DNA of 64,000 nt from the IMG/VR virus record IMGVR_UViG_3300020048_000080. One strand, 5' to 3'. The translations under genes and the position numbers were made by a program. Position 1 is the stretch's first letter; each line of letters starts with the position of its first letter. The notes under the pieces are model-generated. The model searched no databases and was not told where the DNA came from. It worked only from the letters and a program-made list of their open reading frames with translations. The stretch comes from a virus. Taxonomy: Duplodnaviria; Heunggongvirae; Uroviricota; Caudoviricetes. This document shows, in pieces, positions 2 through 58,153 of this stretch.

Positions 2-1282
2 TGTGGTAGGGATTATGAAGAAGGATCAGAACATTTAACACATTTAACAGATAAAATTAATCAACTATTAGCAAAAAAAGAAGAAAATGCTGTTAAAATT
101 CAAGGATTTTTAAATGAATATAAAAAATTAAAAAATCAATTACCTGAATTAGAATTAAAAGAATCTGAGTTGAATAAACAAAAAGATGATTTGAAACAAG
201 GAATTTATTCAGAAGAGTTAAAGTTAAAACTTAAATTGGTTGGTAGTGTTAAAAAATTAAAACAAGAAAATGAGGAAATAAAAATAAAAATAGAAGAAAT
301 TAAAAATAATCAATTTGATAATGTTCCCTCATTAAAGGAAAATATTGAAAAGGGAAGTTCAATTTTAATAGCGGTTGAAAAAGATAAGAATAATAATCTT
401 CAAGTTATTAAAAATCTTGAATCAGAACTAAAATCTTTTAATATTGAAGATATTGAAAATGATATAGAAATTGAGGAAAAACAAAGAACAAATTTTGAAC
501 TAAGAAAGCAAAAAATATCTCAAAAAGACAATTATTTACTTTCTATTGAAAACTTTAAACTAAAAATAAATGAACTTCAATCTGAATTAGATAAATATGA
601 AGCACATAAATCAAAAATAGAAGAGAATAAAGAAATTCAGTTTTCAATTGATAGAATAGATGAAATGATATTAATAGTAAAGGAAAATATTAAAGAAATA
701 AATGATGAAAATATTGAACTTGAAAAAGATATACTTATTAAGAAAAAAGAAATAGAAACTATTCAAAATAAAATCACTAAATATATAAAACAAAAAAAGA
801 AAGAAGAACTCTTAAAAGAATATCAAAAATGTATATCAAGAGATGGTATACCAACATTTTTGTTAAAAAAATCAATTCATTTAATAAATAAAGAGTTGAG
901 TGAACTTTTAACTAACGTTGATTTTACTTTGTTTTTTGATGAAAATTTAATATTAAGAATGAGTGCTGATGATAGATTGGATGTAAGTCAAAATGCCATT
1001 GAAAGTTCAGGTATGGAAAGAACCTTTTGTTCGTTGGCATTAAAAATAGCTTTAAGACAAATAAATGTTAAATCTAAATCAACTTTAATATTTATGGATG
1101 AAATTATGGGTAAATTAATTGAAAGTTCAGTACAAGAGTTTGTTGATTTCTTAGATGATTTGAAAAATAAAGTAAAGAAAATTATTATAATTGAGCATGT
1201 TCATCCGATTAATTTTGATGGATTTATTGAAGTAAAAAAAGATACAAAAACTTTAATATCAAATTTAGAATTTAAAATATAA
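2..1282 (+). CDS. SbcC/Rad50-like recombination ATPase (T4 gp46-like), C-terminal part; 5' end lies outside the window
   Basis: The reading frame is open from position 2 with no upstream stop. Long K/E-rich coiled coil, then an ABC signature-like 'SGMERTFCSLALKIAL', a Walker B 'STLIFMDEIMG', and a C-terminal 'IIIIEHV' H-loop region. Confidence 0.6.
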   Translation, partial: CGRDYEEGSEHLTHLTDKINQLLAKKEENAVKIQGFLNEYKKLKNQLPELELKESELNKQKDDLKQGIYSEELKLKLKLVGSVKKLKQENEEIKIKIEEIKNNQFDNVPSLKENIEKGSSILIAVEKDKNNNLQVIKNLESELKSFNIEDIENDIEIEEKQRTNFELRKQKISQKDNYLLSIENFKLKINELQSELDKYEAHKSKIEENKEIQFSIDRIDEMILIVKENIKEINDENIELEKDILIKKKEIETIQNKITKYIKQKKKEELLKEYQKCISRDGIPTFLLKKSIHLINKELSELLTNVDFTLFFDENLILRMSADDRLDVSQNAIESSGMERTFCSLALKIALRQINVKSKSTLIFMDEIMGKLIESSVQEFVDFLDDLKNKVKKIIIIEHVHPINFDGFIEVKKDTKTLISNLEFKI

Positions 1283-1283
1283 T

Positions 1284-1496
1284 ATGGGAGTAGTAAGAAC
1301 ATTAAGAGGTGAAGATGGTAAACCCTATATATCATTAGAAGATTTAATTAAGGAAATTAAAGATGTTAAAAATTCTAATATAGAGGAAGATGCTATTGAT
1401 GATAGACCTAATTTTATTGATGTTGTGTTGAAAACTTTAAATCAAATGGAAGCAGAATATTATGATAAATTTTTATTCAAAAAGAAAGATAAGTAA
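1284..1496 (+). CDS. hypothetical protein
   Basis: ORF immediately follows the SbcC-like gene with a 1-nt spacer; no recognisable motifs. Confidence 0.3.
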   Translation: MGVVRTLRGEDGKPYISLEDLIKEIKDVKNSNIEEDAIDDRPNFIDVVLKTLNQMEAEYYDKFLFKKKDK

Positions 1497-1886
1497 ATGA
1501 GTAAAAAAATACAGATTTTACCTAAAAAAAAGTATAAAAATTCAACACCAATATCAGGAAATTTTACATTTTCTAGTCCAACTACAACTACACCATTCTC
1601 AATTATTGTCACAGGAAAACAAAACGAAGAAATATTTAAAATTTCAAGTGATGGTGATGTGTATTATAGATATAATGGTGAAATGACAAAGGTGGAGTGT
1701 CCAGAAGATTTATCACAAGCATTTCAAGAGTGTGTGTTGCATATGTCAGGTACAAACTATGATGATCTAATGATTGAGAAATTTATAGAAAAAATATTAA
1801 ACCATAAGAGATCTAATGAGTATATAACTAAGTTAGAATCTGTGTTTAGAAAACTAAAATTAGAAAAATTAAACAAAAGTATATGA
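1497..1886 (+). CDS. hypothetical protein
   Basis: Abutting ORF in an operon-like arrangement; no motifs. Confidence 0.3.
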   Translation: MSKKIQILPKKKYKNSTPISGNFTFSSPTTTTPFSIIVTGKQNEEIFKISSDGDVYYRYNGEMTKVECPEDLSQAFQECVLHMSGTNYDDLMIEKFIEKILNHKRSNEYITKLESVFRKLKLEKLNKSI

Positions 1887-2224
1887 TACAAACATTTGAT
1901 GAATTAATTATCAATAGCGGACCCTGGTGTGCTGAATTTGGAGAATATGAAAGAGTTCTCAATAAAGAAATTACAAACGAAGAATGTGAAATTCTTGATA
2001 AAGCATCTTCACAGATACAAGTTTTAAGATGTAAACTAAGAAATATAGATTGCTCAAAACTTAAAAATAATACTCATTATCTTCTTCATAGAGAAGGAAA
2101 AGCTGAAACATGGTTATATGAAGGTCTTGGAAAAATTGATTCTAGTTATTGTATTTTTACAAGACCATCAGATATTTACGAAAAAAAGATAAATGAGCAA
2201 TATAAGTATAATACAACATATTAA
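1883..2224 (+). CDS. hypothetical protein
   Basis: ATGA start/stop overlap with the upstream ORF. Confidence 0.3.
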   Translation: MIQTFDELIINSGPWCAEFGEYERVLNKEITNEECEILDKASSQIQVLRCKLRNIDCSKLKNNTHYLLHREGKAETWLYEGLGKIDSSYCIFTRPSDIYEKKINEQYKYNTTY

Positions 2225-2249
2225 TAAAACAACTTAACAACAATAAATT

Positions 2250-3407
2250 ATGATAGTAAACGTAAAAAGTCAAACCGGAATCTCCGGTTTTTATATTGTA
2301 TTTGATGGTTCAACAATGAATGAGAAACCAGGATGGTATGGACTCTCACACTTAATGGAACATCTAATGTGTAAATCATTTGAACATCTTCAAAATACAT
2401 ATCAACAAAAAAATATTAAATGGAACGCATATACTTCAAATACAGAGGTTGTGTTTTTTATGAAAGGTCTTGATCGTCATATAAATCAATATAAAAAAGA
2501 TTTTTTAGATTTGATACTCAGTTATGAGCCCACTCAAGAACAATTAGATAATGAAAAAAAGATAGTTTTAGAAGAATATAAAATGGCGTTTAATTCACAA
2601 ATGTCCTCACATTATTATAATCTTCAAAGAAAAATGTTCAATTATTATAATGCGATTGGACTTAGATCAGATATTGAAAAATTTACATTACAAGATTGTA
2701 AAGAATATCTTGATTTATACTGTAAACAACCAACTAAAATTATTAACATTTCAATACACAATGATTTTGAAAGTGATATTAAATTTAGAGAAAAAAAGAG
2801 TGCTAAACCACTTGAAATCAAAAACTATACTAACTTACATCATATAAAATCTGATGATGAAACTGTTGTACCAGAAGGTATGATTCCATTAGAAATTATA
2901 AATGATTATAAAAATAAAGTAAGTATAATAAATTCTTCAAAAATATTAACCGATGATTTTGCATCTGCTTCATTTCTATGTGAAATGTTAGGTGCAGGTT
3001 TAAATTCACCTTTATATAAAGAAGTTCGTGAAAAATTGGGATTGGTATATAGTATAGGTTGTTATAATGATAAATTAAATGATACATCATCTATGATAGG
3101 AATAACAACAGATACATCTAAAAAAAATATTGAAACAGTACAAAATCAAATAAAATATGTTTTAGAAAATAAAGAAAAATTTTTAACACAAGAACGGTTT
3201 GATATTGTTAAAGATAACTATATAACAAAATTAGAAGAAGCAGAAATTTTAAATTACGCTAATACCAGTAAATATATTGATGGTCCAGAATGGCGAATTG
3301 AAAGTATCATACACACAATTACGTTGAAAGATGTACATGATATGGTTGATAAATATTTAAAATGGGATGATCTCTATCTATCTGTTGATAAAACAGAATT
3401 TAAATAA
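2250..3407 (+). CDS. M16 (insulinase/pitrilysin-like) zinc peptidase family protein
   Basis: Inverted zinc-binding motif HxxEH in 'GLSHLMEHLMCK'; 385 aa matches a single-unit M16 protein. Confidence 0.5.
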   Translation: MIVNVKSQTGISGFYIVFDGSTMNEKPGWYGLSHLMEHLMCKSFEHLQNTYQQKNIKWNAYTSNTEVVFFMKGLDRHINQYKKDFLDLILSYEPTQEQLDNEKKIVLEEYKMAFNSQMSSHYYNLQRKMFNYYNAIGLRSDIEKFTLQDCKEYLDLYCKQPTKIINISIHNDFESDIKFREKKSAKPLEIKNYTNLHHIKSDDETVVPEGMIPLEIINDYKNKVSIINSSKILTDDFASASFLCEMLGAGLNSPLYKEVREKLGLVYSIGCYNDKLNDTSSMIGITTDTSKKNIETVQNQIKYVLENKEKFLTQERFDIVKDNYITKLEEAEILNYANTSKYIDGPEWRIESIIHTITLKDVHDMVDKYLKWDDLYLSVDKTEFK

Positions 3408-3440
3408 AAAATGGGCACTTTTAAGTGCCCATTTTTTTAT
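3406..3440 (+). terminator. intrinsic terminator (hairpin atgggcact/agtgcccat followed by a T-run)
   Basis: Perfect 9-bp stem followed by TTTTTTT, 2 nt after the stop codon of the M16 gene. Confidence 0.6.
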
Positions 3441-3487
3441 TCAAGAAATTTTTCTTAATTTTGTTCTAATCTAAAAAAATAAAAAAT

Positions 3488-4162
3488 ATGAATATAGATT
3501 TAATTGAAAGTGAAAAAATTACTGTAGTTTATGATAAAACTGCTAGTCATAATGTTGACCCACAAAAAGGATTTACACCTCTTTGTCCTGATGAACTTCC
3601 AGTACCAGATGGTGATAATATCGTAACCGAACTTGTTGGTCAAAATGAACTCGTTGCATATAGAACTGTTTCCAAGGATATGCACCCCGCAAATGCTATT
3701 TGGTTAGCAACAAAAGAAAAACCTCAATACACACCTGTTGAAGGCGAGAATGTAGATATTCGTTGGAATGCACATTGTATGAGTGGTACAAAAGGTGCTG
3801 AGCTTCTTGATGGACTTGGTAAAATGAGCGATTTTGATTTCTTTTTAGCAAAAGGTTATGAACCAGAACTTCACCCATATTCATCTTGTTATCATGATCT
3901 TAAAAAGACCATTTCTACAGGTCTTATTGAATGGTACAATTCAAAAAATATTTCAACAATTATTGTTGGTGGATTAGCAACCAATTATTGTGTTGGTGAA
4001 ACTGTTATTGATTTGATAAATGCTGGATTTCAAGTTATTCTTAATCTTGGTGCTTGTCGTGGTATTGGTTCAACAGAAGATGTTGATAAATATGTAAACG
4101 AACTTGTTGAAAAATATGGAGTTTTAGTTGTTAATTCTTATAAAGAAATTGAAGTAATATGA
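3488..4162 (+). CDS. pncA: nicotinamidase/pyrazinamidase (isochorismatase-like cysteine hydrolase)
   Basis: Catalytic Asp in 'NVDPQKGF' and the Cys nucleophile in 'GGLATNYCVGETV', within an isochorismatase-family layout of 224 aa. Confidence 0.7.
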   Translation: MNIDLIESEKITVVYDKTASHNVDPQKGFTPLCPDELPVPDGDNIVTELVGQNELVAYRTVSKDMHPANAIWLATKEKPQYTPVEGENVDIRWNAHCMSGTKGAELLDGLGKMSDFDFFLAKGYEPELHPYSSCYHDLKKTISTGLIEWYNSKNISTIIVGGLATNYCVGETVIDLINAGFQVILNLGACRGIGSTEDVDKYVNELVEKYGVLVVNSYKEIEVI

Positions 4163-4359
4163 GCAAGAAACAAAAAACTGTAAGAGTTGAAGAATTAATT
4201 GAATTCTTACAAACGTGTGATCCTAAAGCCAAAGTTTTTATAACTATGGGAGGAAGTTGTAATTGTAATCCAGTAACATTCTATGAAGTAGATGATTGTG
4301 GTATTGAAGTTGGTGAAAAACATGCTGGTTCAGTAATAATTGGAGAAATGACTTGGTAA
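4159..4359 (+). CDS. hypothetical small Cys-containing protein
   Basis: ATGA overlap with pncA; contains 'GGSCNCNP'. Confidence 0.3.
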   Translation: MSKKQKTVRVEELIEFLQTCDPKAKVFITMGGSCNCNPVTFYEVDDCGIEVGEKHAGSVIIGEMTW

Positions 4360-4384
4360 TTAAATTTTTTAATTCAATAATTTA

Positions 4385-5623
4385 TTGTACATTTGTACTC
4401 TAATCAAAAATAATATGAAACAAGAAGGAATCATTAGAAGTATTTTGGATAGCGATCTTTATAAGTTTTCTATGCAATATTTTGTTATTCAGCATTATAA
4501 TGAAGCTGAAGTAGATTATACTTTTAATAACCGAGACAAATCAATGGTTTTTAACCAAACTGCTGTTGATGAAATTAAAAATCAAATTAAACTTATGTCC
4601 GAACTCAAACTCACAGATGCTGAGTATGATTGGATGAAAAAAGAATTATATTTTTTACCTGTTGCATATCGTCAATATCTTGCCGCATATAGATTTAATC
4701 CAAATCAAGTTAATATTAATCTTACTTTTAATGGTCAATTAGAAATAAACATTAAAGGTAAATGGAGGGACACCATTCTTTGGGAAGTGCCTCTTATGGC
4801 TATCATATCAGAAGTATATTTTAAATATATGGATACTGACTGGAATATGGATAATCAAGAAAAATTAGCCTATAATAAAGCTAAAACTCTTAGTGAAGCT
4901 GATTGTTTCTTTGCAGATTTTGGTACCCGCAGACGTAGAAATTTTGAAACTCAGGATATTGTAGTAAAAACTATGAAGGAGTTTAAAGGATTTGTTGGAA
5001 CTAGCAATCCTTATTTAGCAATGAAATATAATGTAAAAGCACTTGGAACTTGTGCTCACGAGGCAATAGGCGCTGTCGCAGCATTAGAAAGTTTAAATCA
5101 TCCGAATAAAATATTTATGGAAAGATGGTCTGAAGTGTATGAAGGTGATTTGGGAACTATGCTACCTGATACTTATGGACTTGAATCTTTTTTGAAAGAT
5201 TTTTCATTAGGAAAAGCAAAATTATGGGATGGAGTAAGACATGACTCAGGTGATCCTTATGTTTTTGTTGATAAAATTGTTGAGCATTATAAAAAACTAC
5301 GAATTGATCCAACCACAAAAACAATTATATTTAGTGATGGATTAGATGTTGAAACTGCAATTTCACTTAGGAATTATTGTAGAGGTAAAATTCGTTGTTC
5401 ATTTGGTATAGGTACATTTTTTACTTCTGATTTCATTAAGGCTAGTACTAAAAATAGTGAAATGTGGCGACCACCTCAAGTTGAGAAAAGTAAACCAATG
5501 AATATGGTAATTAAACTTACTATGATTAATAACATACCAGTTGTTAAATTATCAGATAGTCCTGGAAAAGCAATTGGTGATCCAAAAATGGTTGAAATAA
5601 TGAAATATATTCACTTATCATAA
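4385..5623 (+). CDS. pncB: nicotinate phosphoribosyltransferase
   Basis: N-terminus 'ILDSDLYKFSMQ' matches PncB 'LLDTDAYKLHMQ'; 'FADFGTRRRRN' phosphoribosyltransferase motif; length of 412 aa fits PncB and is too short for NadV/NAMPT. Confidence 0.75.
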   Translation: MYICTLIKNNMKQEGIIRSILDSDLYKFSMQYFVIQHYNEAEVDYTFNNRDKSMVFNQTAVDEIKNQIKLMSELKLTDAEYDWMKKELYFLPVAYRQYLAAYRFNPNQVNINLTFNGQLEINIKGKWRDTILWEVPLMAIISEVYFKYMDTDWNMDNQEKLAYNKAKTLSEADCFFADFGTRRRRNFETQDIVVKTMKEFKGFVGTSNPYLAMKYNVKALGTCAHEAIGAVAALESLNHPNKIFMERWSEVYEGDLGTMLPDTYGLESFLKDFSLGKAKLWDGVRHDSGDPYVFVDKIVEHYKKLRIDPTTKTIIFSDGLDVETAISLRNYCRGKIRCSFGIGTFFTSDFIKASTKNSEMWRPPQVEKSKPMNMVIKLTMINNIPVVKLSDSPGKAIGDPKMVEIMKYIHLS

Positions 5624-5624
5624 A

Positions 5625-5804
5625 ATGAAAACTTATTATATAGGTAGTGTTCGTATGGTTGAAGGAACTGAAAAATATATATTTTCAGACGATATATATA
5701 AAGAAGAGCCTGAAATTGATTATTATAAATTACTAGATTTAATTGATAAACAAATTATTGAAAATTACTTAAGAAAGAAAAAACTAGAAAATCTTAAAAA
5801 ATAA
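5625..5804 (+). CDS. small hypothetical ORF (59 aa) not in the supplied ORF track
   Basis: ATG begins 2 nt after the pncB stop; open for 59 codons. Confidence 0.2.
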   Translation: MKTYYIGSVRMVEGTEKYIFSDDIYKEEPEIDYYKLLDLIDKQIIENYLRKKKLENLKK

Positions 5805-5837: not shown

Positions 5838-6137
5838 ATGAGTGATGTAAAAGAAGATACCAAAACCTTAGAAGAAATCTTAGCAGAGTCTGGAATTTCA
5901 ACTAGTGCAGAAGAAGAGAGCAGACTCGTTTTATGGAATGATGATCATAATTCATTTGAATGGGTTATATTTTGTCTTGTTACTTTACTAGGATTTACAA
6001 TGGAAAAAGCAGAAAATGCTGCTTGGACTGTACATTTACAAGGTAAAGAAGTAGTAATGAATGGATCAAAAGAATCATTAGAACCATACAAAAAATTATT
6101 AGAAGAAAGGGGACTTACTGTCTCTATAGAGGATTAA
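5838..6137 (+). CDS. clpS: ATP-dependent Clp protease adaptor ClpS
   Basis: 'LVLWNDDHNSFEWVIFCL' matches the ClpS core 'ILVNDDYTPMEFVI'; the 99-aa size fits; located directly upstream of the Clp ATPase gene. Confidence 0.8.
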   Translation: MSDVKEDTKTLEEILAESGISTSAEEESRLVLWNDDHNSFEWVIFCLVTLLGFTMEKAENAAWTVHLQGKEVVMNGSKESLEPYKKLLEERGLTVSIED

Positions 6138-6139
6138 AA

Positions 6140-6373
6140 ATGAAAAAATTAATTGCAAAATATATTTTATATGTTTACTTAAATTTCATTAAAGATAATG
6201 ATATTGACATTTATAATGAATGGGCAATTCCTATAATAAAAACTAATAATTTTATTCGTAATATTTACGTTTGGATAGCATCAATATTATTTTTTCCAAT
6301 TTTTATCATTGGTATGATTATTGACGAAAATAGAGAACATATTCAAAAAAAAATAAATATATACCTTAACTAA
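6140..6373 (+). CDS. small membrane protein (hypothetical)
   Basis: Hydrophobic segment 'IYVWIASILFFPIFIIGMII'. Confidence 0.3.
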   Translation: MKKLIAKYILYVYLNFIKDNDIDIYNEWAIPIIKTNNFIRNIYVWIASILFFPIFIIGMIIDENREHIQKKINIYLN

Positions 6374-6382
6374 ATATAAAAA

Positions 6383-8926
6383 ATGAAATACTCAAAAGAC
6401 GTAGAAAAAGCAATAAAAGAAAGTAAGGAAATTGCGATAGAAATCAATTCTAAAACAATTAGACCTGAACATTTATTTTTAGCATTGATTAATAATCAAG
6501 AATCAAACGCATATAATATTTTATATGAAATGAATCTTAATATTGATGCTATAAAACAAACATTAAAGGATTGGTCAGTAGCAATACAATCACAAATTGG
6601 TATAGTTAAATTAAGAAGTAATGCCGCTATATCATTGGATCCTGAAACTGATAGAATTCTTAAGAGTGCAATGGAATTTGCAAAAAATGTTGAATCAGAA
6701 GAAGTTGATTCTGAACATGTTTTTTATTCTATTTTAGAAAACTCTAATAATTTAGTAACCGAATTATTTAGTAAATCTCCTGATACTTTTAAAAATTTAA
6801 AAGTAAGATTGAAAAATGATGAGGAACAAGAAGAAATTTATAATGATAACGATAATGATTTTGATATGGAACAAGACGCAACCGAAAAAGGAAATAAAAA
6901 TTCAAAAACTAAATTAATAGAACAATTTGGTGTTGAACTTACTAAACTTGCAAGAGAAGGAAAATTAGATCCAGTAGTTGGTCGCAAAACAGAAATTAAA
7001 AGAATTTCTCAAATTCTTTCTCGTAGAAAGAAAAATAATCCAGTTCTTATTGGTGAACCAGGAGTTGGTAAATCTGCAATTGCTGAAGGTATGGCACAAC
7101 TCATTGTAGAAGGTAAAGTACCAGGCAACCTAAAGGATAAAAAGATTTTCACTCTTGAAATGGGATCACTTGTTGCTGGTACTAAATACAGAGGTGAATT
7201 TGAACAAAGATTAAGAGGTATTATCAAAGAAATGGAAGAAAATAAAAATATTATTCTTTTCATTGATGAAATACATACTATAATTGGAGCAGGTTCAGCA
7301 CAAGGATCACTTGACGCTTCAAATATGTTAAAACCAGCACTTTCCCGTGGAAACTTCCAATGTATTGGTGCTACTACACTTGAAGAATATCGTAAGTATA
7401 TTGAGAAAGACGGAGCATTAGAACGTCGTTTTCAAAAGGTTAATGTTGACCCAACATCAAAATCAGAAACACTTGAAATTCTTAAAAATATTAAAGATAA
7501 ATATGAAGAGTATCACTCAGTAACTTATACTGAAGAAGCTCTACAGGCTTGTGTTGATTTGACTGATAAATATATGTCAGAAAAATTTCTTCCAGATAAA
7601 GCTATTGATGCTTTAGATGAAGCTGGTTCAAAGGTTCACGTAAACAGAACAGTTAATGTTCCCAAAAAAATTCAAGAACTTGAAAAGAAAATCAAGAAAG
7701 TTTTTATTGAAAAAGCAAAACTTATTGATGATCAAAAATTTGAAGAAGCCGCAGAAAAAAGAGACTCTGAAAGAGAACTTATTAAAGAATTGGATGTAGA
7801 AAAAGAACTATGGAAAAGTGAACAATTGAAAGTTCGTGATTCTGTTACAAAAGATGATGTTGCTGAAGTTGTTGCATTAATGACAAAAATTCCAGTTGAT
7901 AATGTATCTTCTGATGAAAACAACAAACTCAAACTTATGTCAAATAAGGTAAAGAGTGTTGTTATCGGACAAGATGAAGCAGTTGATAAATTAGTTCGTG
8001 CCGTTAAAAGAGCAAGAATTGGTATCAAGGATCCAACAAAACCAGTAGGTTCATTTATATTCTTGGGACCAACAGGTGTAGGTAAAACATATCTTGCAAA
8101 GATTATGGCAAAGGAACTTTTCGGTTCTGAGGAATCTATGATTCGTATTGATATGAGTGAGTATATGGAAAAACATACTGTATCAAGGTTAGTAGGAGCG
8201 CCTCCGGGATACGTTGGATATGAAGATGGTGGTGAACTTACCGAAGCTGTAAGACGTAGACCATATTCAATTATTCTTCTTGATGAAATTGAAAAAGCAC
8301 ACCCTGATGTTCAAAACATTCTTCTTCAATTACTTGATGATGGTGTATTAACTGATAGTTATGGTCGTAGGGTTGACTTCAAAAATACGATTATTATTAT
8401 GACTTCTAATGCAGGTTCAAGAAAAGTTAAAGATTTTGGTACAGGTATTGGTTTTTCATCATCAGCAAGAAGTGAATCAGTTCAGAAAGATAAAAATGAT
8501 GTGATTGATAAAGAATTGAAAAAAATATTCAGTCCAGAATTTTTAAACCGTATTGATGAAGTTATTATGTTTAACTCATTAGGAAAAGACCAAATTGGTA
8601 AAATTGTTGATGTTGAAGTTAAATCAACTATTCAAAGATTGAAAGATATTGGATATGAAATCAACATTACTCAATCCTTAAAAGATTATCTTTTTGAACA
8701 AGGATATGATGAAAATTTTGGAGCCCGACCACTAAAAAGAGCAATTCAGAAATATATTGAAGATTATATTACTGATGCTATTATCAACGAAGAAGTTAAA
8801 GTTGGTGATAGACTTTCATTAAGATTTGATAAGACTTTGAAAGAAGTTAAATTAATTAAATTATCATTGAAAGATGAAATTGAACCTCAAGGTTTGTTAC
8901 CTATAACAACTGAACCAATTGTCTAA
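6383..8926 (+). CDS. clpA: Clp ATPase ClpA/ClpC type (Clp_N repeats plus two AAA+ modules)
   Basis: N-terminal Clp_N repeats; Walker A motifs 'GEPGVGKSA' and 'GPTGVGKT'; Walker B 'ILFIDEIH' and '[10 protein letters not shown]'; a UVR-like linker '[12 protein letters not shown]' is closer to ClpC. Confidence 0.85.
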
Positions 8927-8958
8927 TAAAAAAGCCTCTGAAAAGAGGCTTTTTTTAT
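8927..8958. terminator. bidirectional intrinsic terminator (agcctct-gaaa-agaggct)
   Basis: Hairpin flanked by an A-run and a T-run, between the convergent clpA (+) gene and the dNMP kinase-like (-) gene. Confidence 0.6.
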
Positions 8959-16928: not shown

Positions 16929-17204
16929 ATGAAAGATTCCTATTTAAAATTAAGAGTAACAGACGAAGAGTATATAAAATTTCAGAGTGCATGTGAGAAT
17001 AAAAACAAAACCATGAGTGAAGTTCTAAGATACTTTATCACGTCATATAGTAATACAGAACATTTAATTTTATTAGATGTTGATAGTGATACTCTTAAAA
17101 ATACCACAGAAGTATGTAAAGAAAAAAAGATAAAATTTAATGATTTAGTTAAATTCCTTTTAGAAAAAGCTATTAAAAATAAGGATAAATTAAATTTTAA
17201 ATAA
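16929..17204 (+). CDS. hypothetical small protein
   Basis: ORF only. Confidence 0.3.
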   Translation: MKDSYLKLRVTDEEYIKFQSACENKNKTMSEVLRYFITSYSNTEHLILLDVDSDTLKNTTEVCKEKKIKFNDLVKFLLEKAIKNKDKLNFK

Positions 17205-17788
17205 TGTTATTTGTAGAAGCATACAAACGAAGATTTGATTTACCAGAAGATTCCATTGTAATTGATACAACATCAAGATCAGGTAATTGGACAAGAGGTT
17301 TTTCTCCTTTTATTATCCCAGGTGGTTATTTATATGATGGTTATTATGCTAAAAGTGTAGAAAATGCTTGGCAAGCAAGTAAAGTGTTTCCTCAATTTGT
17401 AGATGAAAATAATAATCCAACACCTGAATATTTTACTTGGGCAAAAAATATTTGGACTTCAAGTTATGCTTATAGATATCCAATGGATAAAGGTATAAAG
17501 CCTCTTTATTCTTGGTGGAATGGTCAAAAATATGATTATGTAGAAGCAAGGAAAAAAATATATATTCCTTTATATAGTAGAGGAGTTATAAAAACAAAAG
17601 CATTTGAAACTTTATTAGATATTTATAGAAAAACTGATAAAGATATTTATTTAGTTGATTTTGATGGTTATAATCATAAAAAAATGGGATTAACTTTGGT
17701 AGATGTTGCGAATAATCCAAAAAGAAGTATGGGACACGCATTTGTGATTTATGATTTATTACAAAGATACAAAAAAGAAAGCCTTTGA
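17204..17788 (+). CDS. NADAR (YbiA/DUF1768)-like domain protein
   Basis: 'GFSPFIIPGGYLYDGYYAKSVENAWQASKVF' matches the NADAR core 'FSNF..P...DG..Y.SVEHYFQAQKF'. Confidence 0.5.
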   Translation: MLFVEAYKRRFDLPEDSIVIDTTSRSGNWTRGFSPFIIPGGYLYDGYYAKSVENAWQASKVFPQFVDENNNPTPEYFTWAKNIWTSSYAYRYPMDKGIKPLYSWWNGQKYDYVEARKKIYIPLYSRGVIKTKAFETLLDIYRKTDKDIYLVDFDGYNHKKMGLTLVDVANNPKRSMGHAFVIYDLLQRYKKESL

Positions 17789-35328: not shown

Positions 35329-36060
35329 GTGAAATATTTAGAAAAATTTAAAATGATTGAAAATAAGGAACATATAACTTTTAATAAAGAAGATGCTGAT
35401 TTAATTCAGAATTCTTTATATATTGATATGAAAGAAGATGGTGTTGAAAAAGATGATGTAAACTGGATTTATAATGAACTAGAATTAATCAAAAAAGATG
35501 CTGACAATTCTTGTCTTTTCCATATAATAAGAAACTATTACAAATTAACAGAAAGAAATACTATAATTAGATTAGCAATAAAGTTTTTTGATTTAAAATA
35601 TAAAGATGTTATTGAAAAATTCAAAAAAGATAGGAAAAAAGAATTTGCATCATCAAATAATTTTGATACTGAAATTGAATCTGAATTTGTTAACCTTCCA
35701 TATGGTGATAGCACATTAAGTGTACCAAGAAGAATAGGTCATAATTATATTCCAATTAAAATTCTACCATTAGAACAATTAAACACTAAATTTTCAAAAC
35801 ATAGAAGATTAAAAGTTTTTCATCATAAAGGTTTAGAATGTATATCTTGTCCTAAAATAGGTGAATATTTAATTGCAGCAAGAGATAGAGGTGGCGCAAT
35901 TCATATTGATTTATATACAAAAGATTTTGAATTAATGACTATTGATCATATTAAACCAAAAGGAAAAGGTGGAAGTAATGATATAGAGAATCTTGATCCA
36001 ATGTGTCAAACCTGTAATTCAAAGAAAGCAGATACCTACGAAGAAGAAAATATATTATAA
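35329..36060 (+). CDS. HNH endonuclease (leader MKYLEKFK)
   Basis: C-terminal HNH motif 'DHIKPKGKGGSNDIENLDPMCQTCNSKK'. Confidence 0.55.
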   Translation: MKYLEKFKMIENKEHITFNKEDADLIQNSLYIDMKEDGVEKDDVNWIYNELELIKKDADNSCLFHIIRNYYKLTERNTIIRLAIKFFDLKYKDVIEKFKKDRKKEFASSNNFDTEIESEFVNLPYGDSTLSVPRRIGHNYIPIKILPLEQLNTKFSKHRRLKVFHHKGLECISCPKIGEYLIAARDRGGAIHIDLYTKDFELMTIDHIKPKGKGGSNDIENLDPMCQTCNSKKADTYEEENIL

Positions 36061-36094
36061 TTTTTTAATATATACTAAAAAATATTTCAATTTA

Positions 36095-36976
36095 ATGATT
36101 AATGAAGGTGTTTTAAGAAGTCCAAAATGGTTAAGAAATTTTGCTGATTTTGAAATAAATACAGGTGAAGATATTAAAGGTGAGCCGTCAGAAAAAAGAA
36201 AGCGTCAATTAGAGAAAGAGCGTAAAATAAAAGAAGAAGAGAGAAGGATAAAAGAAAAAGAAGAAAGAGAAAGAGAAAGAGAAGAAGAGAGAAAAAGGAA
36301 AGAACAAGAGGAAACTAATATTTTGGTTGATGAATTAATCAAAAATGCAATTTATTTTATAAATAATTATTATAAAAAATGTAACGTAAAAGTAGATGCA
36401 TATAATAATGAAGTTACAATAAGTCACAGTAATCTTAAATTTGATGGTAAAGATTTAAAATTTGAAATCACATTAGAAAATTCAGTTGTAATTCCTAAAT
36501 TTAGATGCTCATTTACTTATAATGGATACATATATACATCCAAATTAAGCGGATTTAATTATACTGATTTCAAAATATTTATACTTCAAGTAATATATCC
36601 ATTTTATTCTAGTGGTGGATATAAATCAAATTCTAATAGTTATGAGGAGTCTAGTAGAAAAGCACGTGAAGAAGAAACTAAAAGAAAAGCAAATGATACT
36701 TATGAAGAATATAAAAAAAGATATTCTTCATCTAATGAAACCGAAGAAGTAAAAAAGAGAAGAAGATTATATAATCTTCTTAAAGAAACTCTTGATGGGT
36801 ATTTAAGAACAATGGATAGAATAAAAGAATGGGAGAAAAAAAATCCAGGAAAAAAACACACCGATAGAGACTCAACAGAAAAAGAAATTGAAGCAGTAGA
36901 AACTAAAATTAAGAATATTAAAGATAAATATAAATTTGAATCTTTAAATCATTTAACTTCTTTTATATTTTATTAA
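36095..36976 (+). CDS. hypothetical protein with an E/R/K-rich low-complexity region; C-terminal domain paralogous to that of 34183..34890
   Basis: The track ORF starts at 35993 inside the HNH gene; the likely start is Met 36095 'MINEGV'. C-terminus 'RRRLYNLLKETLDGYLRTMDRIKEWEKKNPGKKHTDRDSTEKEIEAVETKIKNIKDKYKFE'. Confidence 0.35.
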   Translation: MINEGVLRSPKWLRNFADFEINTGEDIKGEPSEKRKRQLEKERKIKEEERRIKEKEEREREREEERKRKEQEETNILVDELIKNAIYFINNYYKKCNVKVDAYNNEVTISHSNLKFDGKDLKFEITLENSVVIPKFRCSFTYNGYIYTSKLSGFNYTDFKIFILQVIYPFYSSGGYKSNSNSYEESSRKAREEETKRKANDTYEEYKKRYSSSNETEEVKKRRRLYNLLKETLDGYLRTMDRIKEWEKKNPGKKHTDRDSTEKEIEAVETKIKNIKDKYKFESLNHLTSFIFY

Positions 36977-43511: not shown

Positions 43512-45539
43512 ATGACCTTATCAGAAACTTATATCCTATTACATAACGGTGATTTTATCGCTGTTGCAAACGAAATTAAAAGATTAAATAAAAAATATCG
43601 TGATGGTGATCCCGAAATAACAGATTCCGAATACGACCTTTTACTTAAAACATTTAAATCTGTTGATCCGGAGAATGAAATTTTTACATCAGGTGTTATT
43701 GAAGTTGTTGAGGTTGATTCTGATAGAAAAGAAACTTTAAAATATCCAATGTTTTCTTTAGATAAAGAAAGTTCTATTGAAGAAATCAAGAAATGGTTAA
43801 TCAATAAAGGCTTACCTCTCTCTACTGTTTTAGTATGTACCGCAAAATATGACGGTATCTCAGTTTTAAAAAACGAAAAAACTGCTCTTGTTTGGTCAAG
43901 AGGTGATGGTGTTGAAGGTGAAACAATGCACGAACACTATAAAAAATTAAATGCGAAAAACTCCAATATTGAAATTTATACAATTGGAGAAATGATTATT
44001 CCTAAACCAGTTTTTGCAACACATACATTCTATCGTGATAATGGTGAAGCATTTAGAAATGCTAGAAATATGATTGCTGGTCTTAAAAATTCAGATACAG
44101 TTTCAGATGATTTGAAATATGCAAAACACGTTCGTTATGGATTTGCTAGTGAGGATTTTACAATGAATAAATCTGAACAACTTGATTTTATCTCAAAAGA
44201 ATTGAATCCTGTTCCTTATAAAATATTCCATGCTGATGATTTGAAAGTTGATGAGTTAAATGAACTTTTTATTGAATGGGGTAAAGAATATGACATTGAC
44301 GGTCTTGTGTTAGATATTAATGATAAAGATATAAGAAAAAATTTAGGTCGTGAAAGAAATAATAATCCTTGTTACGCAAGAGCATACAAAAATCCCGAAT
44401 GGTCAGTAATAAATACACCTGCATACAAAGATATAGAATGGAATCTAAGTAAAACTAAGGCTTTAAAACCTGTTGTTCTTGTAGAACCATTTGATGTTGA
44501 TGGTGTTACGATATCAAGGGTAACAGGATATAATGCTAAATTTATCCAAGAAAATCAAATTGGTGAAGGCTCTATTTTAGAAGTTATTCGTTCTGGTGGA
44601 GTTATTCCAAAAATTACTGGAGTTATAAAAGTTGGTAAACTTGCTCTTCCAACCCATTGTCCTAGTTGTAATACAAAATTAGAATGGAATGAAAACGCAG
44701 TAGATTTGGTTTGTAATAACAAAGGTTGTGATGAAATTAATTTTCAAAAAGTTGCATTCTTTTTTGTTCGTTTTAATATTGTAGGATTTGCAGAAAAAAC
44801 TATTAAAAAAGTATATGATGCTGGTTATAATACAGTTGGTAAAATTTTATCAATGAGTTTTATTGATATTCAAAAAATTGAAGGTATGGGAAATCTCTCA
44901 GCAACAAAACTTTTGAAAGAATTTGATGAAAAAATTAAACAAGCACCTTTTGAGGTTATTGGACACGCATCAGGTTGCTTTGAAAATATTGGTTCAAGAA
45001 AACTGAAGATGATTAATGATGGAATTAAAGATATGGTTTATGCACCAGGTAAATCTTATCCTCATTTTGATACATTTAAAGATTCCATTGTAAAAATGGA
45101 CTTGGAATTAATTTCAACAATGTTATATTTTAATGATGTTTATAAAGAAATTTTATCAGTATTGAATTCTATAAAAGGTATGTCAGATAAAACTTCTGAA
45201 AACTTTTTAAATGGTCTTATCTGTTTTAATTCTTTTATGAAGGATTTGAACATTACAATTAGTGATGAACCGAAAGTGAAAAAAGAAACTCCAAAAAATA
45301 ATACTAACAATATGAAAACTACTGATTTAAAAGGTCGTGAATTTGTGTTCACAGGCTTCCGTGATGCTGAACTTAAAAGTTTCATTGAAAGTTGTGGTGG
45401 CGTTGTTAAAGATGATATTAGAAAAAGTACAACAGATTTACTTACAAAAAGTCCTGATACTACCTCAGCAAAAGCAAAAAAAGCACAAGCAATAGGTGCA
45501 ACTGTAACACAGGTTGATGATTTTAAACTTTCATTATGA
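43512..45539 (+). CDS. ligA: NAD+-dependent DNA ligase
   Basis: Adenylation motif 'CTAKYDGISV' (KxDG); Zn finger 'CPSCNTKLEWNENAVDLVCNNKGC'; HhH region; C-terminal BRCT 'GREFVFTGF'. Length 675 aa. Confidence 0.85.
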   Translation: MTLSETYILLHNGDFIAVANEIKRLNKKYRDGDPEITDSEYDLLLKTFKSVDPENEIFTSGVIEVVEVDSDRKETLKYPMFSLDKESSIEEIKKWLINKGLPLSTVLVCTAKYDGISVLKNEKTALVWSRGDGVEGETMHEHYKKLNAKNSNIEIYTIGEMIIPKPVFATHTFYRDNGEAFRNARNMIAGLKNSDTVSDDLKYAKHVRYGFASEDFTMNKSEQLDFISKELNPVPYKIFHADDLKVDELNELFIEWGKEYDIDGLVLDINDKDIRKNLGRERNNNPCYARAYKNPEWSVINTPAYKDIEWNLSKTKALKPVVLVEPFDVDGVTISRVTGYNAKFIQENQIGEGSILEVIRSGGVIPKITGVIKVGKLALPTHCPSCNTKLEWNENAVDLVCNNKGCDEINFQKVAFFFVRFNIVGFAEKTIKKVYDAGYNTVGKILSMSFIDIQKIEGMGNLSATKLLKEFDEKIKQAPFEVIGHASGCFENIGSRKLKMINDGIKDMVYAPGKSYPHFDTFKDSIVKMDLELISTMLYFNDVYKEILSVLNSIKGMSDKTSENFLNGLICFNSFMKDLNITISDEPKVKKETPKNNTNNMKTTDLKGREFVFTGFRDAELKSFIESCGGVVKDDIRKSTTDLLTKSPDTTSAKAKKAQAIGATVTQVDDFKLSL

Positions 45540-57190: not shown

Positions 57191-57379
57191 ATGAAAACAA
57201 AAGACTTAGAAGTAAATGATAAGATAATTTTTATCTTAAATGGTGTAATGCTTGATGGAGAAATTTTGGAAAAAAACTATTTGGACAAGGGTGACATTGA
57301 CTTTGTTATTAAAGTCGCAAATGATAAAAAAACGAGAATACTACATAGAAATTTAAATCTTTATTATAAACTTAAATGA
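57191..57379 (+). CDS. hypothetical small protein
   Basis: ORF only. Confidence 0.25.
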   Translation: MKTKDLEVNDKIIFILNGVMLDGEILEKNYLDKGDIDFVIKVANDKKTRILHRNLNLYYKLK

Positions 57380-57927
57380 AAGTATTATTTAGACATGGTC
57401 TTTGTGACCATAATATTGAAAATAGAATCAGTTGTAGTTTAGATTCTAAATCTGAACTAACAGAAAAAGGAAAAGAACTAGTCTTAGAATCAGCACTAGA
57501 ACTGAAAAAAAATTATAATTGGTATTTCCGAAAAAATAGTGATATAAAAGTTTTTTGCTCTCCACTCTTGAGAACAAAACAAACCGCTAAAATCTTATGT
57601 GATACTTTAGAAATTGATTTTGATAAAGTTATATACGATGAAAGATTAAAAGAAGCACAATATGGTACCTACGACGAAGGACCCGTTTCCAATCTTCCTT
57701 ATGACGTATACGACATGGACAATTTCCAAGATCATGGCTCCGAAACCTACTTTGATATAGAAAGTAGAATAAGAAGCTTCCTGAGAGATACAAATCCTTG
57801 TATGCCTCCACAACACTACACACATTTAATAGTATCTCATGCTCTCCCAATTAGAGTTATGCACAAAATGCTAACAGAAATAAACGACAAAGTTAAAGTC
57901 GCAAAATATTTTATCGTAAATCAATAA
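57376..57927 (+). CDS. histidine phosphatase superfamily (PGAM-like) protein
   Basis: N-terminal 'VLFRHGLCDHN' RHG motif and a later 'SHALPIR' His. Confidence 0.5.
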   Translation: MKVLFRHGLCDHNIENRISCSLDSKSELTEKGKELVLESALELKKNYNWYFRKNSDIKVFCSPLLRTKQTAKILCDTLEIDFDKVIYDERLKEAQYGTYDEGPVSNLPYDVYDMDNFQDHGSETYFDIESRIRSFLRDTNPCMPPQHYTHLIVSHALPIRVMHKMLTEINDKVKVAKYFIVNQ

Positions 57928-57934
57928 AAAAATT

Positions 57935-58087
57935 ATGGAATCAGCACTTTATTTAATCTTAGCAGTAATACTTATTGTATTAGGATTTTTATTAACATCA
58001 TCAATTGCCTATATTTTCCTAATTATAGGTGGTTTTATGTTCGGAAGAACTTTAGCCAAATTAGTATTAGAAAAAAATAATCATTAA
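57935..58087 (+). CDS. small membrane peptide (50 aa), not in the supplied track
   Basis: Two hydrophobic helices 'LYLILAVILIVLGFLL...IFLIIGGFMF'. Confidence 0.25.
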   Translation: MESALYLILAVILIVLGFLLTSSIAYIFLIIGGFMFGRTLAKLVLEKNNH

Positions 58088-58153
58088 ACTTTTTAAATTA
58101 AATATAATAAATCAATCAATAAACAATCAAATTTTAACTAAAACAATTAAATT

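What the first reader, a model, noticed from the sequence alone, without database searches (positions are those of the whole stretch)
3488..5623. NAD salvage pair PncA and PncB (Preiss-Handler entry) encoded together
Nicotinamidase (Cys hydrolase motifs) and nicotinate phosphoribosyltransferase (PncB-like N-terminus, FGTRRR) are separated only by a 66-aa ORF. Phage NAD-reconstitution pathways are known to counter NAD-depleting defences such as Thoeris, DSR and SEFIR, but those use Nampt/Nmnat or Adps/Namat. A PncA and PncB route that converts the nicotinamide released by NADase defences into NaMN would be a different solution. The genome also carries an NAD-dependent ligase (43512..45539) and a NADAR-like gene (17204..17788).
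Basis: partly seen in the sequence, partly recalled or inferred. Interest (0 to 1): 0.6.

Follow-up and report, generated by a model that had tools for sequence, protein, structure and literature searches.

The report
Megaphage copy of bacterial pncA–pncB salvage genes
A very large phage carries working-looking copies of the two bacterial enzymes that turn nicotinamide into a precursor of NAD, a gene pair that is common in bacteria and already reported in large phages, so it is a real but fairly ordinary metabolic add-on whose role against NAD-destroying defences is untested.

Summary
Window 3488-4162 encodes a nicotinamidase (PncA) with an intact active site. Window 4415-5623 (ATG start, not the TTG at 4385) encodes an ATP-type nicotinate phosphoribosyltransferase (PncB). 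A non-conserved 66-aa ORF lies between them.

The window belongs to a clade of roughly 0.5-Mb megaphages (related contigs of 501 and 531 kb). In this clade PncA and PncB keep the same syntenic slot, with variable mobile inserts between them.

The pair is not a new solution:
- The same PncA subfamily sits next to pncB in 75 of 80 bacterial genomes sampled. The closest are Bacteroidales MAGs at 63-65% identity.
- Sixty of 80 NadE-centred IMG/VR viral contigs carry full PncA-PncB-NadE-NadD(-Nudix) clusters.
- Li et al. 2024 already described Preiss-Handler genes in jumbo phages.

No nadD, nadE, Nampt or Nmnat was found in this window. The pair lies in a terminator-bounded block with ClpS and ClpB, not among known anti-defence genes. 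The "NADAR-like" gene matches only DUF6939, so that label is unproven. The NAD-dependent ligase is confirmed.

Best reading: a host-derived auxiliary NAD-salvage module that depends on NadD and NadE from elsewhere. A counter-defence role is plausible but untested.

The parts
3406..3437 (.). Bidirectional intrinsic-terminator-like hairpin after the M16 peptidase gene. It marks the upstream edge of the block that holds pncA.
   Evidence: 14-bp stem with 5 GC pairs, T-tracts on both sides. Sequence read.
3488..4162 (+). pncA: nicotinamidase of the isochorismatase-like cysteine hydrolase fold, 224 aa.
   Evidence: Active-site positions were placed from the alignment to 2wt9; their roles come from general knowledge of nicotinamidases. 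Catalytic residues: D24, K122, C168. Metal ligands: D64, H66, H96. In 35 homologs K122, C168, H66 and H96 are invariant, and D24 and D64 are Asp in 29 and Glu in 6.
4159..4359 (+). 66-aa ORF overlapping the pncA stop codon (ATGA). It is lineage-specific filler in a variable slot and has no known domain.
   Evidence: No Pfam or NCBIfam hit. No tblastn hit in 14 related loci. It is unrelated to the 66-aa ORF at the same place in the 531-kb relative. It is called as a gene in the identical Logan contig.
4415..5623 (+). pncB: nicotinate phosphoribosyltransferase of the ATP-coupled type, 402 aa from the ATG start.
   Evidence: PDB 1vlp E 2e-80; 2im5 E 1.1e-76. P0121 is 402 aa and 100% identical. 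R172-R174, H215 (the His of GTxAHE), D277-S278-G279 and G331-I332-G333-T334 are invariant in 33 homologs.
5625..5804 (+). 59-aa ORF immediately after pncB (stop and start 1 nt apart). Function unknown.
5838..8926 (+). ClpS (5838-6137), a 77-aa ORF (6140-6373) and a ClpA/ClpB-type AAA+ chaperone (6383-8926), co-directional with pncA and pncB. No terminator-like site was found between pncB and these genes.
   Evidence: Pfam ClpS, AAA_2, ClpB_D2-small. The synteny is conserved in relatives.
8928..8955 (+). Terminator-like hairpin closing the pncA-to-clpB block.
   Evidence: 12-bp stem followed by a T-run.
43512..45539 (+). NAD-dependent DNA ligase (LigA-like), an NAD+ consumer encoded by the same phage.
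   Evidence: Pfam adenylation, OB, Zn-finger and BRCT domains. (TIGR00575, E 9.4e-68, full-length alignment but below the equivalog cutoff).
17204..17788 (+). The relationship to NADAR is unproven.
   Evidence: hhalign against YbiA gives probability 0.46% and E 0.13, although the SPF/SNF and VENAWQxSK/SEHYFQAQK motifs line up; the single-sequence model is unusable (pLDDT 40.7).

Best explanation
The pair is a bacterial-type pncA-pncB nicotinamide/nicotinate salvage module carried as auxiliary metabolic genes by a roughly 0.5-Mb megaphage.

Proposed mechanism:
- PncA hydrolyses nicotinamide to nicotinate and ammonia.
- PncB uses PRPP, coupled to ATP hydrolysis through a phospho-histidine, to make nicotinate mononucleotide (NaMN).
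- NaMN becomes NAD+ through NadD and NadE. These are not in this window, so they must come from the host or from elsewhere in the phage genome.

The net effect is a higher flux from nicotinamide back to NAD+ during a long infection. The nicotinamide can come from the environment, from ADP-ribosyltransferases or sirtuins, or from host NADase defences. The phage itself spends NAD+, for example through its LigA-type ligase.

Shown here: gene identity, intact active sites, conservation as a pair across the phage clade, and the bacterial operon origin.

Inferred: enzyme activities, dependence on host NadD and NadE, and the benefit to the phage.
For: Enzyme identity:
- Pfam and NCBIfam hits.
- PDB sequence hits are nicotinamidases and NAPRTases.
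- The 11 best fold matches for PncA are nicotinamidases.
- Catalytic and metal-binding residues are invariant or conservatively D/E across 35 PncA and 33 PncB homologs.

Conservation in the phage clade:
- Both genes are present in the same slot (SbcCD ... PncA - variable inserts - PncB - ClpS - ClpB) in every distinct related viral locus that spans the slot except one (L009). These include the 501-kb and 531-kb contigs.
- More than 100 metagenomic homologs of each protein share 57-98% identity with the window copy.
- PncB exists in three roughly 40%-identical forms next to a PncA that stays 66-74% identical. This suggests the function, not one lineage of the gene, is retained.

Bacterial origin:
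- The nearest cellular PncA sequences are in Bacteroidales MAGs at 63-65% identity, one in a clearly bacterial context.
- PncB lies within 4 kb of this PncA subfamily in 75 of 80 bacterial genomes.

Precedent:
- Jumbo-phage Preiss-Handler genes are published (PMC11662467).
- Full PncA-PncB-NadE-NadD-Nudix clusters occur in 60 of 80 IMG/VR loci.

NAD demand: a LigA-type ligase is in the same window.
Against: - No enzymatic or expression data exist.
- NadD and NadE were not found in the window or in the ±10 kb flanks of clade relatives. The pathway is therefore incomplete as seen. The rest of the roughly 0.5-Mb genome could not be read.
- PncA scores below the NCBIfam equivalog cutoff.
- The AF2 model is poor (pLDDT below 50) over residues 67-75 and 80-100, which include the metal-binding His96.
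- One relative (L009) lacks PncA, so PncA is dispensable in at least one lineage.
- The likely host lineage appears to have its own pncA-pncB. The added value of a phage copy is therefore assumed, not shown.
Confidence: 0.7

Rival explanations
1. Dedicated counter-defence, in effect a fourth NAD+ reconstitution pathway. The pair is selected specifically to recycle the nicotinamide released by NADase immune effectors (TIR/Thoeris, SIR2, SEFIR, DSR) into NaMN, letting the phage escape NAD+ depletion.
For: - NADase defences release nicotinamide, and phages are known to rebuild NAD+ through NARP1, NARP2 and NARP3 (PMC13464706; bioRxiv 10.1101/2024.02.11.579819).
- The pair is strongly conserved in the clade, and PncB was replaced rather than lost.
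- Complete PncA-headed NAD operons in many viral contigs include a Nudix gene, which suggests ADPR/NAD handling.
Against: - No paper in the searchable library tests PncA or PncB against a defence system.
- Here the genes sit in a block with ClpS and ClpB, next to an M16 peptidase, not with known anti-defence genes.
- The route needs four steps and two enzymes absent from the window.
- From general knowledge: E. coli has its own PncA-PncB-NadD-NadE route, yet it is depleted of NAD+ by these defences. Extra PncA and PncB alone may not be enough.
Confidence: 0.25
2. Nicotinamide clearance rather than NAD+ supply. PncA removes nicotinamide, a product inhibitor of sirtuins and ADP-ribosyltransferases, so that phage or host NAD+-consuming enzymes keep working. 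PncB then disposes of the nicotinate.
For: Established knowledge that yeast Pnc1 regulates Sir2 by removing nicotinamide. PncA and PncB are conserved together.
Against: No sirtuin or ADP-ribosyltransferase was detected among the window ORFs scanned. Retention and repeated replacement of PncB fit flux to NaMN better than mere clearance.
Confidence: 0.08
3. Recently captured passenger genes with no role in infection.
For: The genes are clearly of bacterial origin. Huge phages accumulate host-like genes.
Against: - The genes have shifted to phage-like G+C: about 28% in the window against 44-48% in the nearest bacterial loci.
- They are conserved across a clade whose members share only 57-88% protein identity.
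- Active-site residues are invariant.
Confidence: 0.03

Closest known systems
Bacterial pncA-pncB nicotinamide/nicotinate salvage operon (Preiss-Handler entry), e.g. Bacteroidales MAG GCA_023231065.1 contig JALNWE010000057.1
   Same: Same two enzymes. The PncA subfamily is the same, at 63-65% identity. The genes are adjacent: PncB lies within 4 kb of PncA in 75 of 80 genomes, usually directly downstream.
   Different: Here the pair is in a roughly 0.5-Mb phage genome at about 28% G+C. The window's PncB is only 37% identical to the Bacteroidales neighbour's PncB. In Bacteroidales the genes are divergent; in the phage they are co-directional with variable inserts between them.
'NAD-jumbo phage' Preiss-Handler clusters (Li et al. 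2024, Microbiome, PMC11662467), and the PncA-PncB-NadE-NadD-Nudix clusters in IMG/VR contigs and GenBank MT835470.1
   Same: Phage-encoded deamidated NAD+ route starting from PncA and/or PncB. These are large phages with Bacteroidota hosts proposed for one clade.
   Different: Those clusters are complete, with NadE and NadD adjacent and often a Nudix gene. The window and its clade relatives show only PncA and PncB within ±10 kb. The gut-phage PncB is only about 39% identical to the window's.
NARP2 (Nampt + Nmnat), also known as the Vibrio phage KVP40 NadV/NatV salvage pathway
   Same: Uses nicotinamide plus PRPP through a type II phosphoribosyltransferase to rebuild a pyridine mononucleotide. 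It is phage-encoded.
   Different: NARP2 keeps the amide (nicotinamide to NMN to NAD+), is self-contained in two enzymes, and is experimentally shown to defeat NADase defences. The pair here deamidates first, ends at NaMN, needs NadD and NadE, and is untested.
NARP1 (Adps + Namat) and NARP3 (PnuC + NadR)
   Same: Phage two-gene modules aimed at the NAD+ pool.
   Different: Different substrates (ADPR-PP; imported nicotinamide riboside) and unrelated enzymes. No homologs were seen in the window.

Membership tests
Nicotinamidase PncA (isochorismatase-like cysteine hydrolase) | Isochorismatase-like fold | tested here: met
   Pfam PF00857, 45.3 bits against a cutoff of 27. AF2 model pTM 0.79; the 11 best Foldseek PDB hits are nicotinamidases, with TM-score normalised to the query 0.62-0.75.
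Nicotinamidase PncA (isochorismatase-like cysteine hydrolase) | Catalytic triad Asp-Lys-Cys | tested here: met
   D24, K122 and C168 align with the corresponding residues of A. baumannii nicotinamidase 2wt9. K122 and C168 are invariant, and D24 is Asp or Glu, in 35 homologs.
Nicotinamidase PncA (isochorismatase-like cysteine hydrolase) | Metal-binding Asp/His/His (DxH ... HC), which separates nicotinamidases from other isochorismatase-like hydrolases (established knowledge) | tested here: met
   D64-x-H66 and H96-C97 are present. H66 and H96 are invariant; D64 is Asp or Glu. The model is low-confidence around this loop.
Nicotinamidase PncA (isochorismatase-like cysteine hydrolase) | Score above the NCBIfam equivalog cutoff (NF008623) | tested here: not met
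   80.7 bits against a cutoff of 174. It is the only NCBIfam hit, so this is a divergent subfamily rather than a different family.
Nicotinamidase PncA (isochorismatase-like cysteine hydrolase) | Hydrolysis of nicotinamide to nicotinate | not testable with these tools
   Needs an enzyme assay.
Nicotinate phosphoribosyltransferase PncB (ATP-coupled type) | NAPRTase N-terminal and catalytic domains; equivalog-level score | tested here: met
   PF17767 and PF04095. TIGR01514, 431.4 bits against a cutoff of 269.55; NF003704, 462.9 bits against 379. PDB NAPRTases, E 2e-80 to 1.3e-58.
Nicotinate phosphoribosyltransferase PncB (ATP-coupled type) | Conserved phospho-acceptor His in GTxAHE, plus the PRPP/phosphate-binding RRR, DSG and GIGT motifs | tested here: met
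   H215, R172-174, D277-G279 and G331-T334 are invariant in 33 homologs. The role of the His rests on established knowledge of Salmonella PncB.
Experimentally defined phage NAD+ reconstitution pathways (NARP1, NARP2, NARP3) | Signature enzyme pairs: Adps + Namat, Nampt + Nmnat, or PnuC + NadR | tested here: not met
   No such families appear among the window ORFs of at least 140 aa and the shorter ORFs that were scanned. PncB is a NAPRTase by NCBIfam, and its PHROG hit to a nicotinamide phosphoribosyltransferase family is weak, E 1.1e-12.
Experimentally defined phage NAD+ reconstitution pathways (NARP1, NARP2, NARP3) | Restores NAD+ and phage growth in cells armed with NADase defences | not testable with these tools
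   Needs an infection and LC-MS experiment.
Complete phage Preiss-Handler cluster (PncA-PncB-NadE-NadD) | NadE and NadD encoded next to PncA and PncB | tested here: not met
   None in the window or in the ±10 kb of clade relatives. The rest of the genome was not available. Searches for clade contigs among IMG/VR NadD and NadE loci were capped at 80 loci and are inconclusive.

The most novel reading that the evidence does not exclude
PncA plus PncB act as a host-dependent 'deamidating' NAD+ reconstitution pathway. By converting defence-released nicotinamide to NaMN and feeding the host's essential NadD and NadE, the two genes alone let Bacteroidota megaphages outrun NADase immune systems. Their conservation, and the repeated replacement of PncB, reflect that arms race.
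Probability: 0.22. Interest if true: 0.55.

Novelty: new member of a known kind. Interest (0 to 1): 0.3.

Why it matters
If the pair measurably raises NAD+ during infection, it would add the deamidated (Preiss-Handler) route to the experimentally proven ways phages protect the NAD+ pool. It would also show that a phage can do this with only the two entry enzymes by leaning on the host's essential NadD and NadE.

As it stands, the finding documents a conserved, host-derived NAD-salvage module in an uncultured megaphage clade of roughly 0.5 Mb. The far commoner complete PncA-PncB-NadE-NadD-Nudix operons in viral contigs are better first targets for such an experiment.

Tried and rejected
- blastn of the region against 50,697 phage records found no match. 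The clade is absent from INPHARED.
- Exact look-ups of PncA (twice) and of the protein at 62591-63304 found no contig. Only PncB linked the window to Logan contig SRR7760390_928.
- Search for nadD and nadE:
  - Pfam on all window ORFs of at least 140 aa, plus several shorter ones, found none.
  - tblastn of E. coli NadD and NadE against the window and clade loci found nothing.
  - IMG/VR scans with NadD and NadE alignments returned other phage lineages only, capped at 80 loci.
  - Two low-G+C NadD loci (L081, L097) could not be tied to the clade.
  - Result: absent from the window, unknown for the whole genome.
- NADAR test of 17204-17788: no hit in Pfam (even at E up to 5), NCBIfam or PDB. 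hhalign against YbiA was not significant.
- Riboswitch search around pncA and pncB: only terminator look-alikes below threshold.
- Bacteroidota-type TAnnTTTG promoter element: present 25 nt and 20 nt upstream of pncA and pncB. The upstream enrichment (15 genes against 4.7 expected) is matched by the antisense control (12), so it gives no evidence for promoters or host.
- Sigma-70 promoter scan: not above shuffles.
- The 66-aa ORF as a conserved third component: rejected, since it has no homolog in relatives.
Full report
**What is in the sequence.**
The window is about 25-29% G+C throughout. ORF listing shows, on the + strand, a 224-aa ORF at 3488-4162, a 66-aa ORF at 4159-4359 overlapping its stop, and a 412-aa ORF at 4385-5623 that starts with TTG.

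The first ORF matches Pfam Isochorismatase above its gathering score. Its only NCBIfam hit is the nicotinamidase/pyrazinamidase equivalog, at 80.7 bits against a cutoff of 174.

The third ORF matches NAPRTase_N and NAPRTase. It passes the PncB equivalog TIGR01514 at 431 bits against a cutoff of 269.55.

A public gene call with 100% identity is 402 aa long (P0121). The true start is therefore the ATG at 4415, 55 nt after the 66-aa ORF.

**Are the enzymes intact?**
For PncA, the seven best PDB sequence matches are nicotinamidases or pyrazinamidases (2wt9, E 6.8e-19). That alignment places the catalytic Asp24, Lys122 and Cys168 and the metal ligands Asp64, His66 and His96.

In 35 homologs spanning 63-88% identity, Lys122, Cys168, His66 and His96 are invariant. 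The two Asp positions are Asp in 29 and Glu in 6.

An AF2 model has pLDDT 78.9, but it is poor over residues 67-75 and 80-100, which include the metal ligand His96. Its 11 best Foldseek PDB hits are nicotinamidases.

PncB aligns end to end with solved NAPRTases (1vlp, E 2e-80; 2im5 from Porphyromonas, E 1.1e-76). Its RRR (172-174), the His of GTxAHE (His215), DSG and GIGT motifs are invariant in 33 homologs. His215 corresponds, by established knowledge, to the phospho-acceptor of ATP-coupled PncB. Enzyme activities are inferred, not shown.

**What genome is this?**
The window also encodes an M16 peptidase, ClpS, a ClpA/B-type chaperone, ClpP, an S1-domain protein and NusG. It further carries a hybrid histidine kinase, a CCA/poly(A) polymerase, PurA, thymidine kinase, peptide deformylase and an RF-1-domain protein. 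RNA ligase, a LigA-type ligase and five tRNA-Leu genes complete the list.

Most other ORFs have no Pfam or PHROG hit.

Relatives of PncA and PncB at 63-77% identity lie in IMG/VR viral contigs of up to 501,337 bp and an ENA contig of 531,023 bp, with the same gene order. Logan contig SRR7760390_928 is identical to the window over 7,624 bases.

This is a member of an uncultured clade of roughly 0.5-Mb megaphages, absent from INPHARED at the DNA level.

**Is the pairing meaningful?**
Every distinct related viral locus that spans the slot, except one (L009), has PncA and PncB in the same position: SbcCD, small ORFs, with or without M16, then PncA, PncB, ClpS, a 77-aa ORF and ClpB. L009 has PncB but no PncA.

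The gap between the two genes ranges from 0.25 kb here to about 3.2 kb. It holds unrelated cargo:
- GIY-YIG-like endonuclease ORFs, judged from their N-terminal sequence.
- ParB-like proteins and a CYTH-domain protein.
- ORFans.

The window's 66-aa ORF is one such lineage-specific insert, with no homolog elsewhere.

PncB occurs in three forms that are only about 40% identical to each other. L013, which shares the whole syntenic slot, and L014, matched only through PncA and PncB, each carry a different form. The adjacent PncA stays 66-74% identical. This suggests that the function is kept while the gene is exchanged.

Terminator-like hairpins at 3406-3437 and 8928-8955 bracket pncA, pncB, clpS and clpB, with none between them on the + strand. 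No riboswitch precedes either gene.

**Where did the pair come from?**
The closest cellular PncA sequences (63-65% identity) are in Bacteroidales and Draconibacterium MAGs with 44-48% G+C. One lies among T9SS-tail proteins and an efflux pump, which is a bacterial context.

Across the 80 best bacterial loci holding this PncA subfamily, PncB lies within 4 kb in 75, usually directly downstream. These loci come from Bacteroidales, Spirochaetes, many Gammaproteobacteria, Bordetella and others.

The phage pair is thus a captured version of a common bacterial operon, now at phage-like base composition.

**Is it a new kind of phage solution?**
No.
- Li et al. 2024 (PMC11662467) reported that 174 of 668 gut jumbo phages encode complete salvage or Preiss-Handler routes. 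They cite a pncB-nadD-nadE cluster and mention phage pncA.
- GenBank MT835470.1 (117 kb, human faeces) has co-directional PncA-PncB-NadE-(367 aa)-NadD-Nudix.
- Of 80 NadE-centred IMG/VR viral loci, 60 carry PncA+PncB+NadE+NadD within ±3 kb. In 45 of them the order is PncA>PncB>NadE>NadD>Nudix.
- In INPHARED the genes are rare: PncB in 13 records and PncA in 10. The 735-kb phage LR756501 has both within about 8 kb and a NadD-like gene elsewhere.

Earlier surveys (PMC7824862, PMC9503650) listed only NadV, NadM and NadR. The validated pathways are NARP1, NARP2 and NARP3, the last being PnuC + NadR. None of the papers I could search tests PncA or PncB against a defence system.

**What is missing here.**
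No NadD, NadE, Nampt, Nmnat, NadR or PnuC family was detected among the window ORFs of at least 140 aa or the shorter ones scanned. E. coli NadD and NadE found nothing in the window or in clade flanks.

Attempts to find such genes elsewhere in the clade's genomes were inconclusive, because only ±10 kb around matches can be fetched and the lists are capped. As seen, the route stops at NaMN and must rely on NadD and NadE from the host or from unseen parts of the genome.

**Context claims.**
The LigA-type ligase is real.

The 'NADAR-like' gene at 17204-17788 matches only Pfam DUF6939. hhalign against E. coli YbiA gives 0.46% probability, although two motifs line up. The structure model failed. 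NADAR membership is unproven.

**Verdict.**
The best explanation (confidence about 0.7) is a host-derived auxiliary NAD-salvage module that raises flux from nicotinamide or nicotinate to NaMN during infection.

A dedicated counter-defence role is plausible (about 0.2-0.25) but rests on analogy. The gene neighbourhood is proteostasis, not anti-defence. From general knowledge, bacteria that already own this route are still depleted by NADase systems.

The finding is a new member of a known kind. Interest is modest.

Noticed in passing
L003 11887-15393; L013 14174-17668 (compare window 6383-8926): In two related phages the ClpA/B-type chaperone gene matches in two pieces (residues 1-570 and 569-832) separated by about 1 kb. 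This suggests an intein or an intron/homing-endonuclease insertion. The window copy is uninterrupted.
   Followed up: no
L007 9311-9934; L014 13136-13750: A CYTH-domain (triphosphate tunnel metalloenzyme) protein is encoded immediately upstream of PncB in L007 (Pfam E 8.5e-15). L014 has a similar, unscanned ORF at the same place. Both follow a shared set of small ORFs. Any link to NAD or PRPP metabolism is unknown.
   Followed up: partly
L013 10993-12168; L014 13818-15020, versus window 4415-5623: There are three PncB forms, about 40% identical to each other. L013's sits in the same syntenic slot. L014's lies next to PncA but in a locus with no other shared neighbours. The adjacent PncA remains 66-74% identical. 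This looks like repeated xenologous replacement.
   Followed up: partly
window 62366-63572: Five tRNA-Leu genes (anticodons TAA x2, AAG, TAG, CAA) lie in two clusters flanking a 237-aa ORF with no family hit.
   Followed up: no
window 18826-20316: A full hybrid histidine kinase (PAS-HisKA-HATPase-receiver) is encoded by the phage. This is an unusual signalling gene for a virus.
   Followed up: no
window 16929-17788: A 91-aa ORF with a sub-threshold RelB-antitoxin match (E 1.8e-4) abuts the DUF6939 gene; its last base is the first base of that gene. DUF6939 shows motif-level but statistically unsupported resemblance to NADAR.
   Followed up: partly
window 58001-60000: G+C rises locally to 0.36 against about 0.25 elsewhere. 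The rise coincides with a 613-aa SPFH/Band-7 domain protein at 58154-59995. This may be a recent acquisition.
   Followed up: no
window 5625-5804; L017 8510-8710: Unrelated small ORFs flanking pncA and pncB share a C-terminal '(Y/F)xRKKKLENLK' tail (11 residues aligned, 82% identical). The window's 129-aa ORF at 1497-1886 ends in a similar basic tail. Meaning unknown.
   Followed up: no
L081 (IMGVR_UViG_3300035698_019895) 32-3555: A low-G+C viral contig has a dense cluster: a 283-aa ORF (possibly a type II phosphoribosyltransferase), an HD-domain-like ORF, a small CoaD-like nucleotidyltransferase-like ORF, two further small ORFs, and a NadD-like gene. The NadD-like gene is supported by tblastn. 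The other identities are guesses from motifs read in the ORF translations and were not checked with profiles.
   Followed up: no
window 35329-36976: An HNH endonuclease ORF (35329-36060) overlaps the start of the next 327-aa ORF (35993-36976) by 68 nt. This may be a mobile insertion.
   Followed up: no
window 57376-57927: A histidine-phosphatase (His_Phos_1, CobC/PGM-like) gene is present. A 2026 preprint found reports phage phosphatases countering an NAD+-degrading RES defence. No link was tested here.
   Followed up: no
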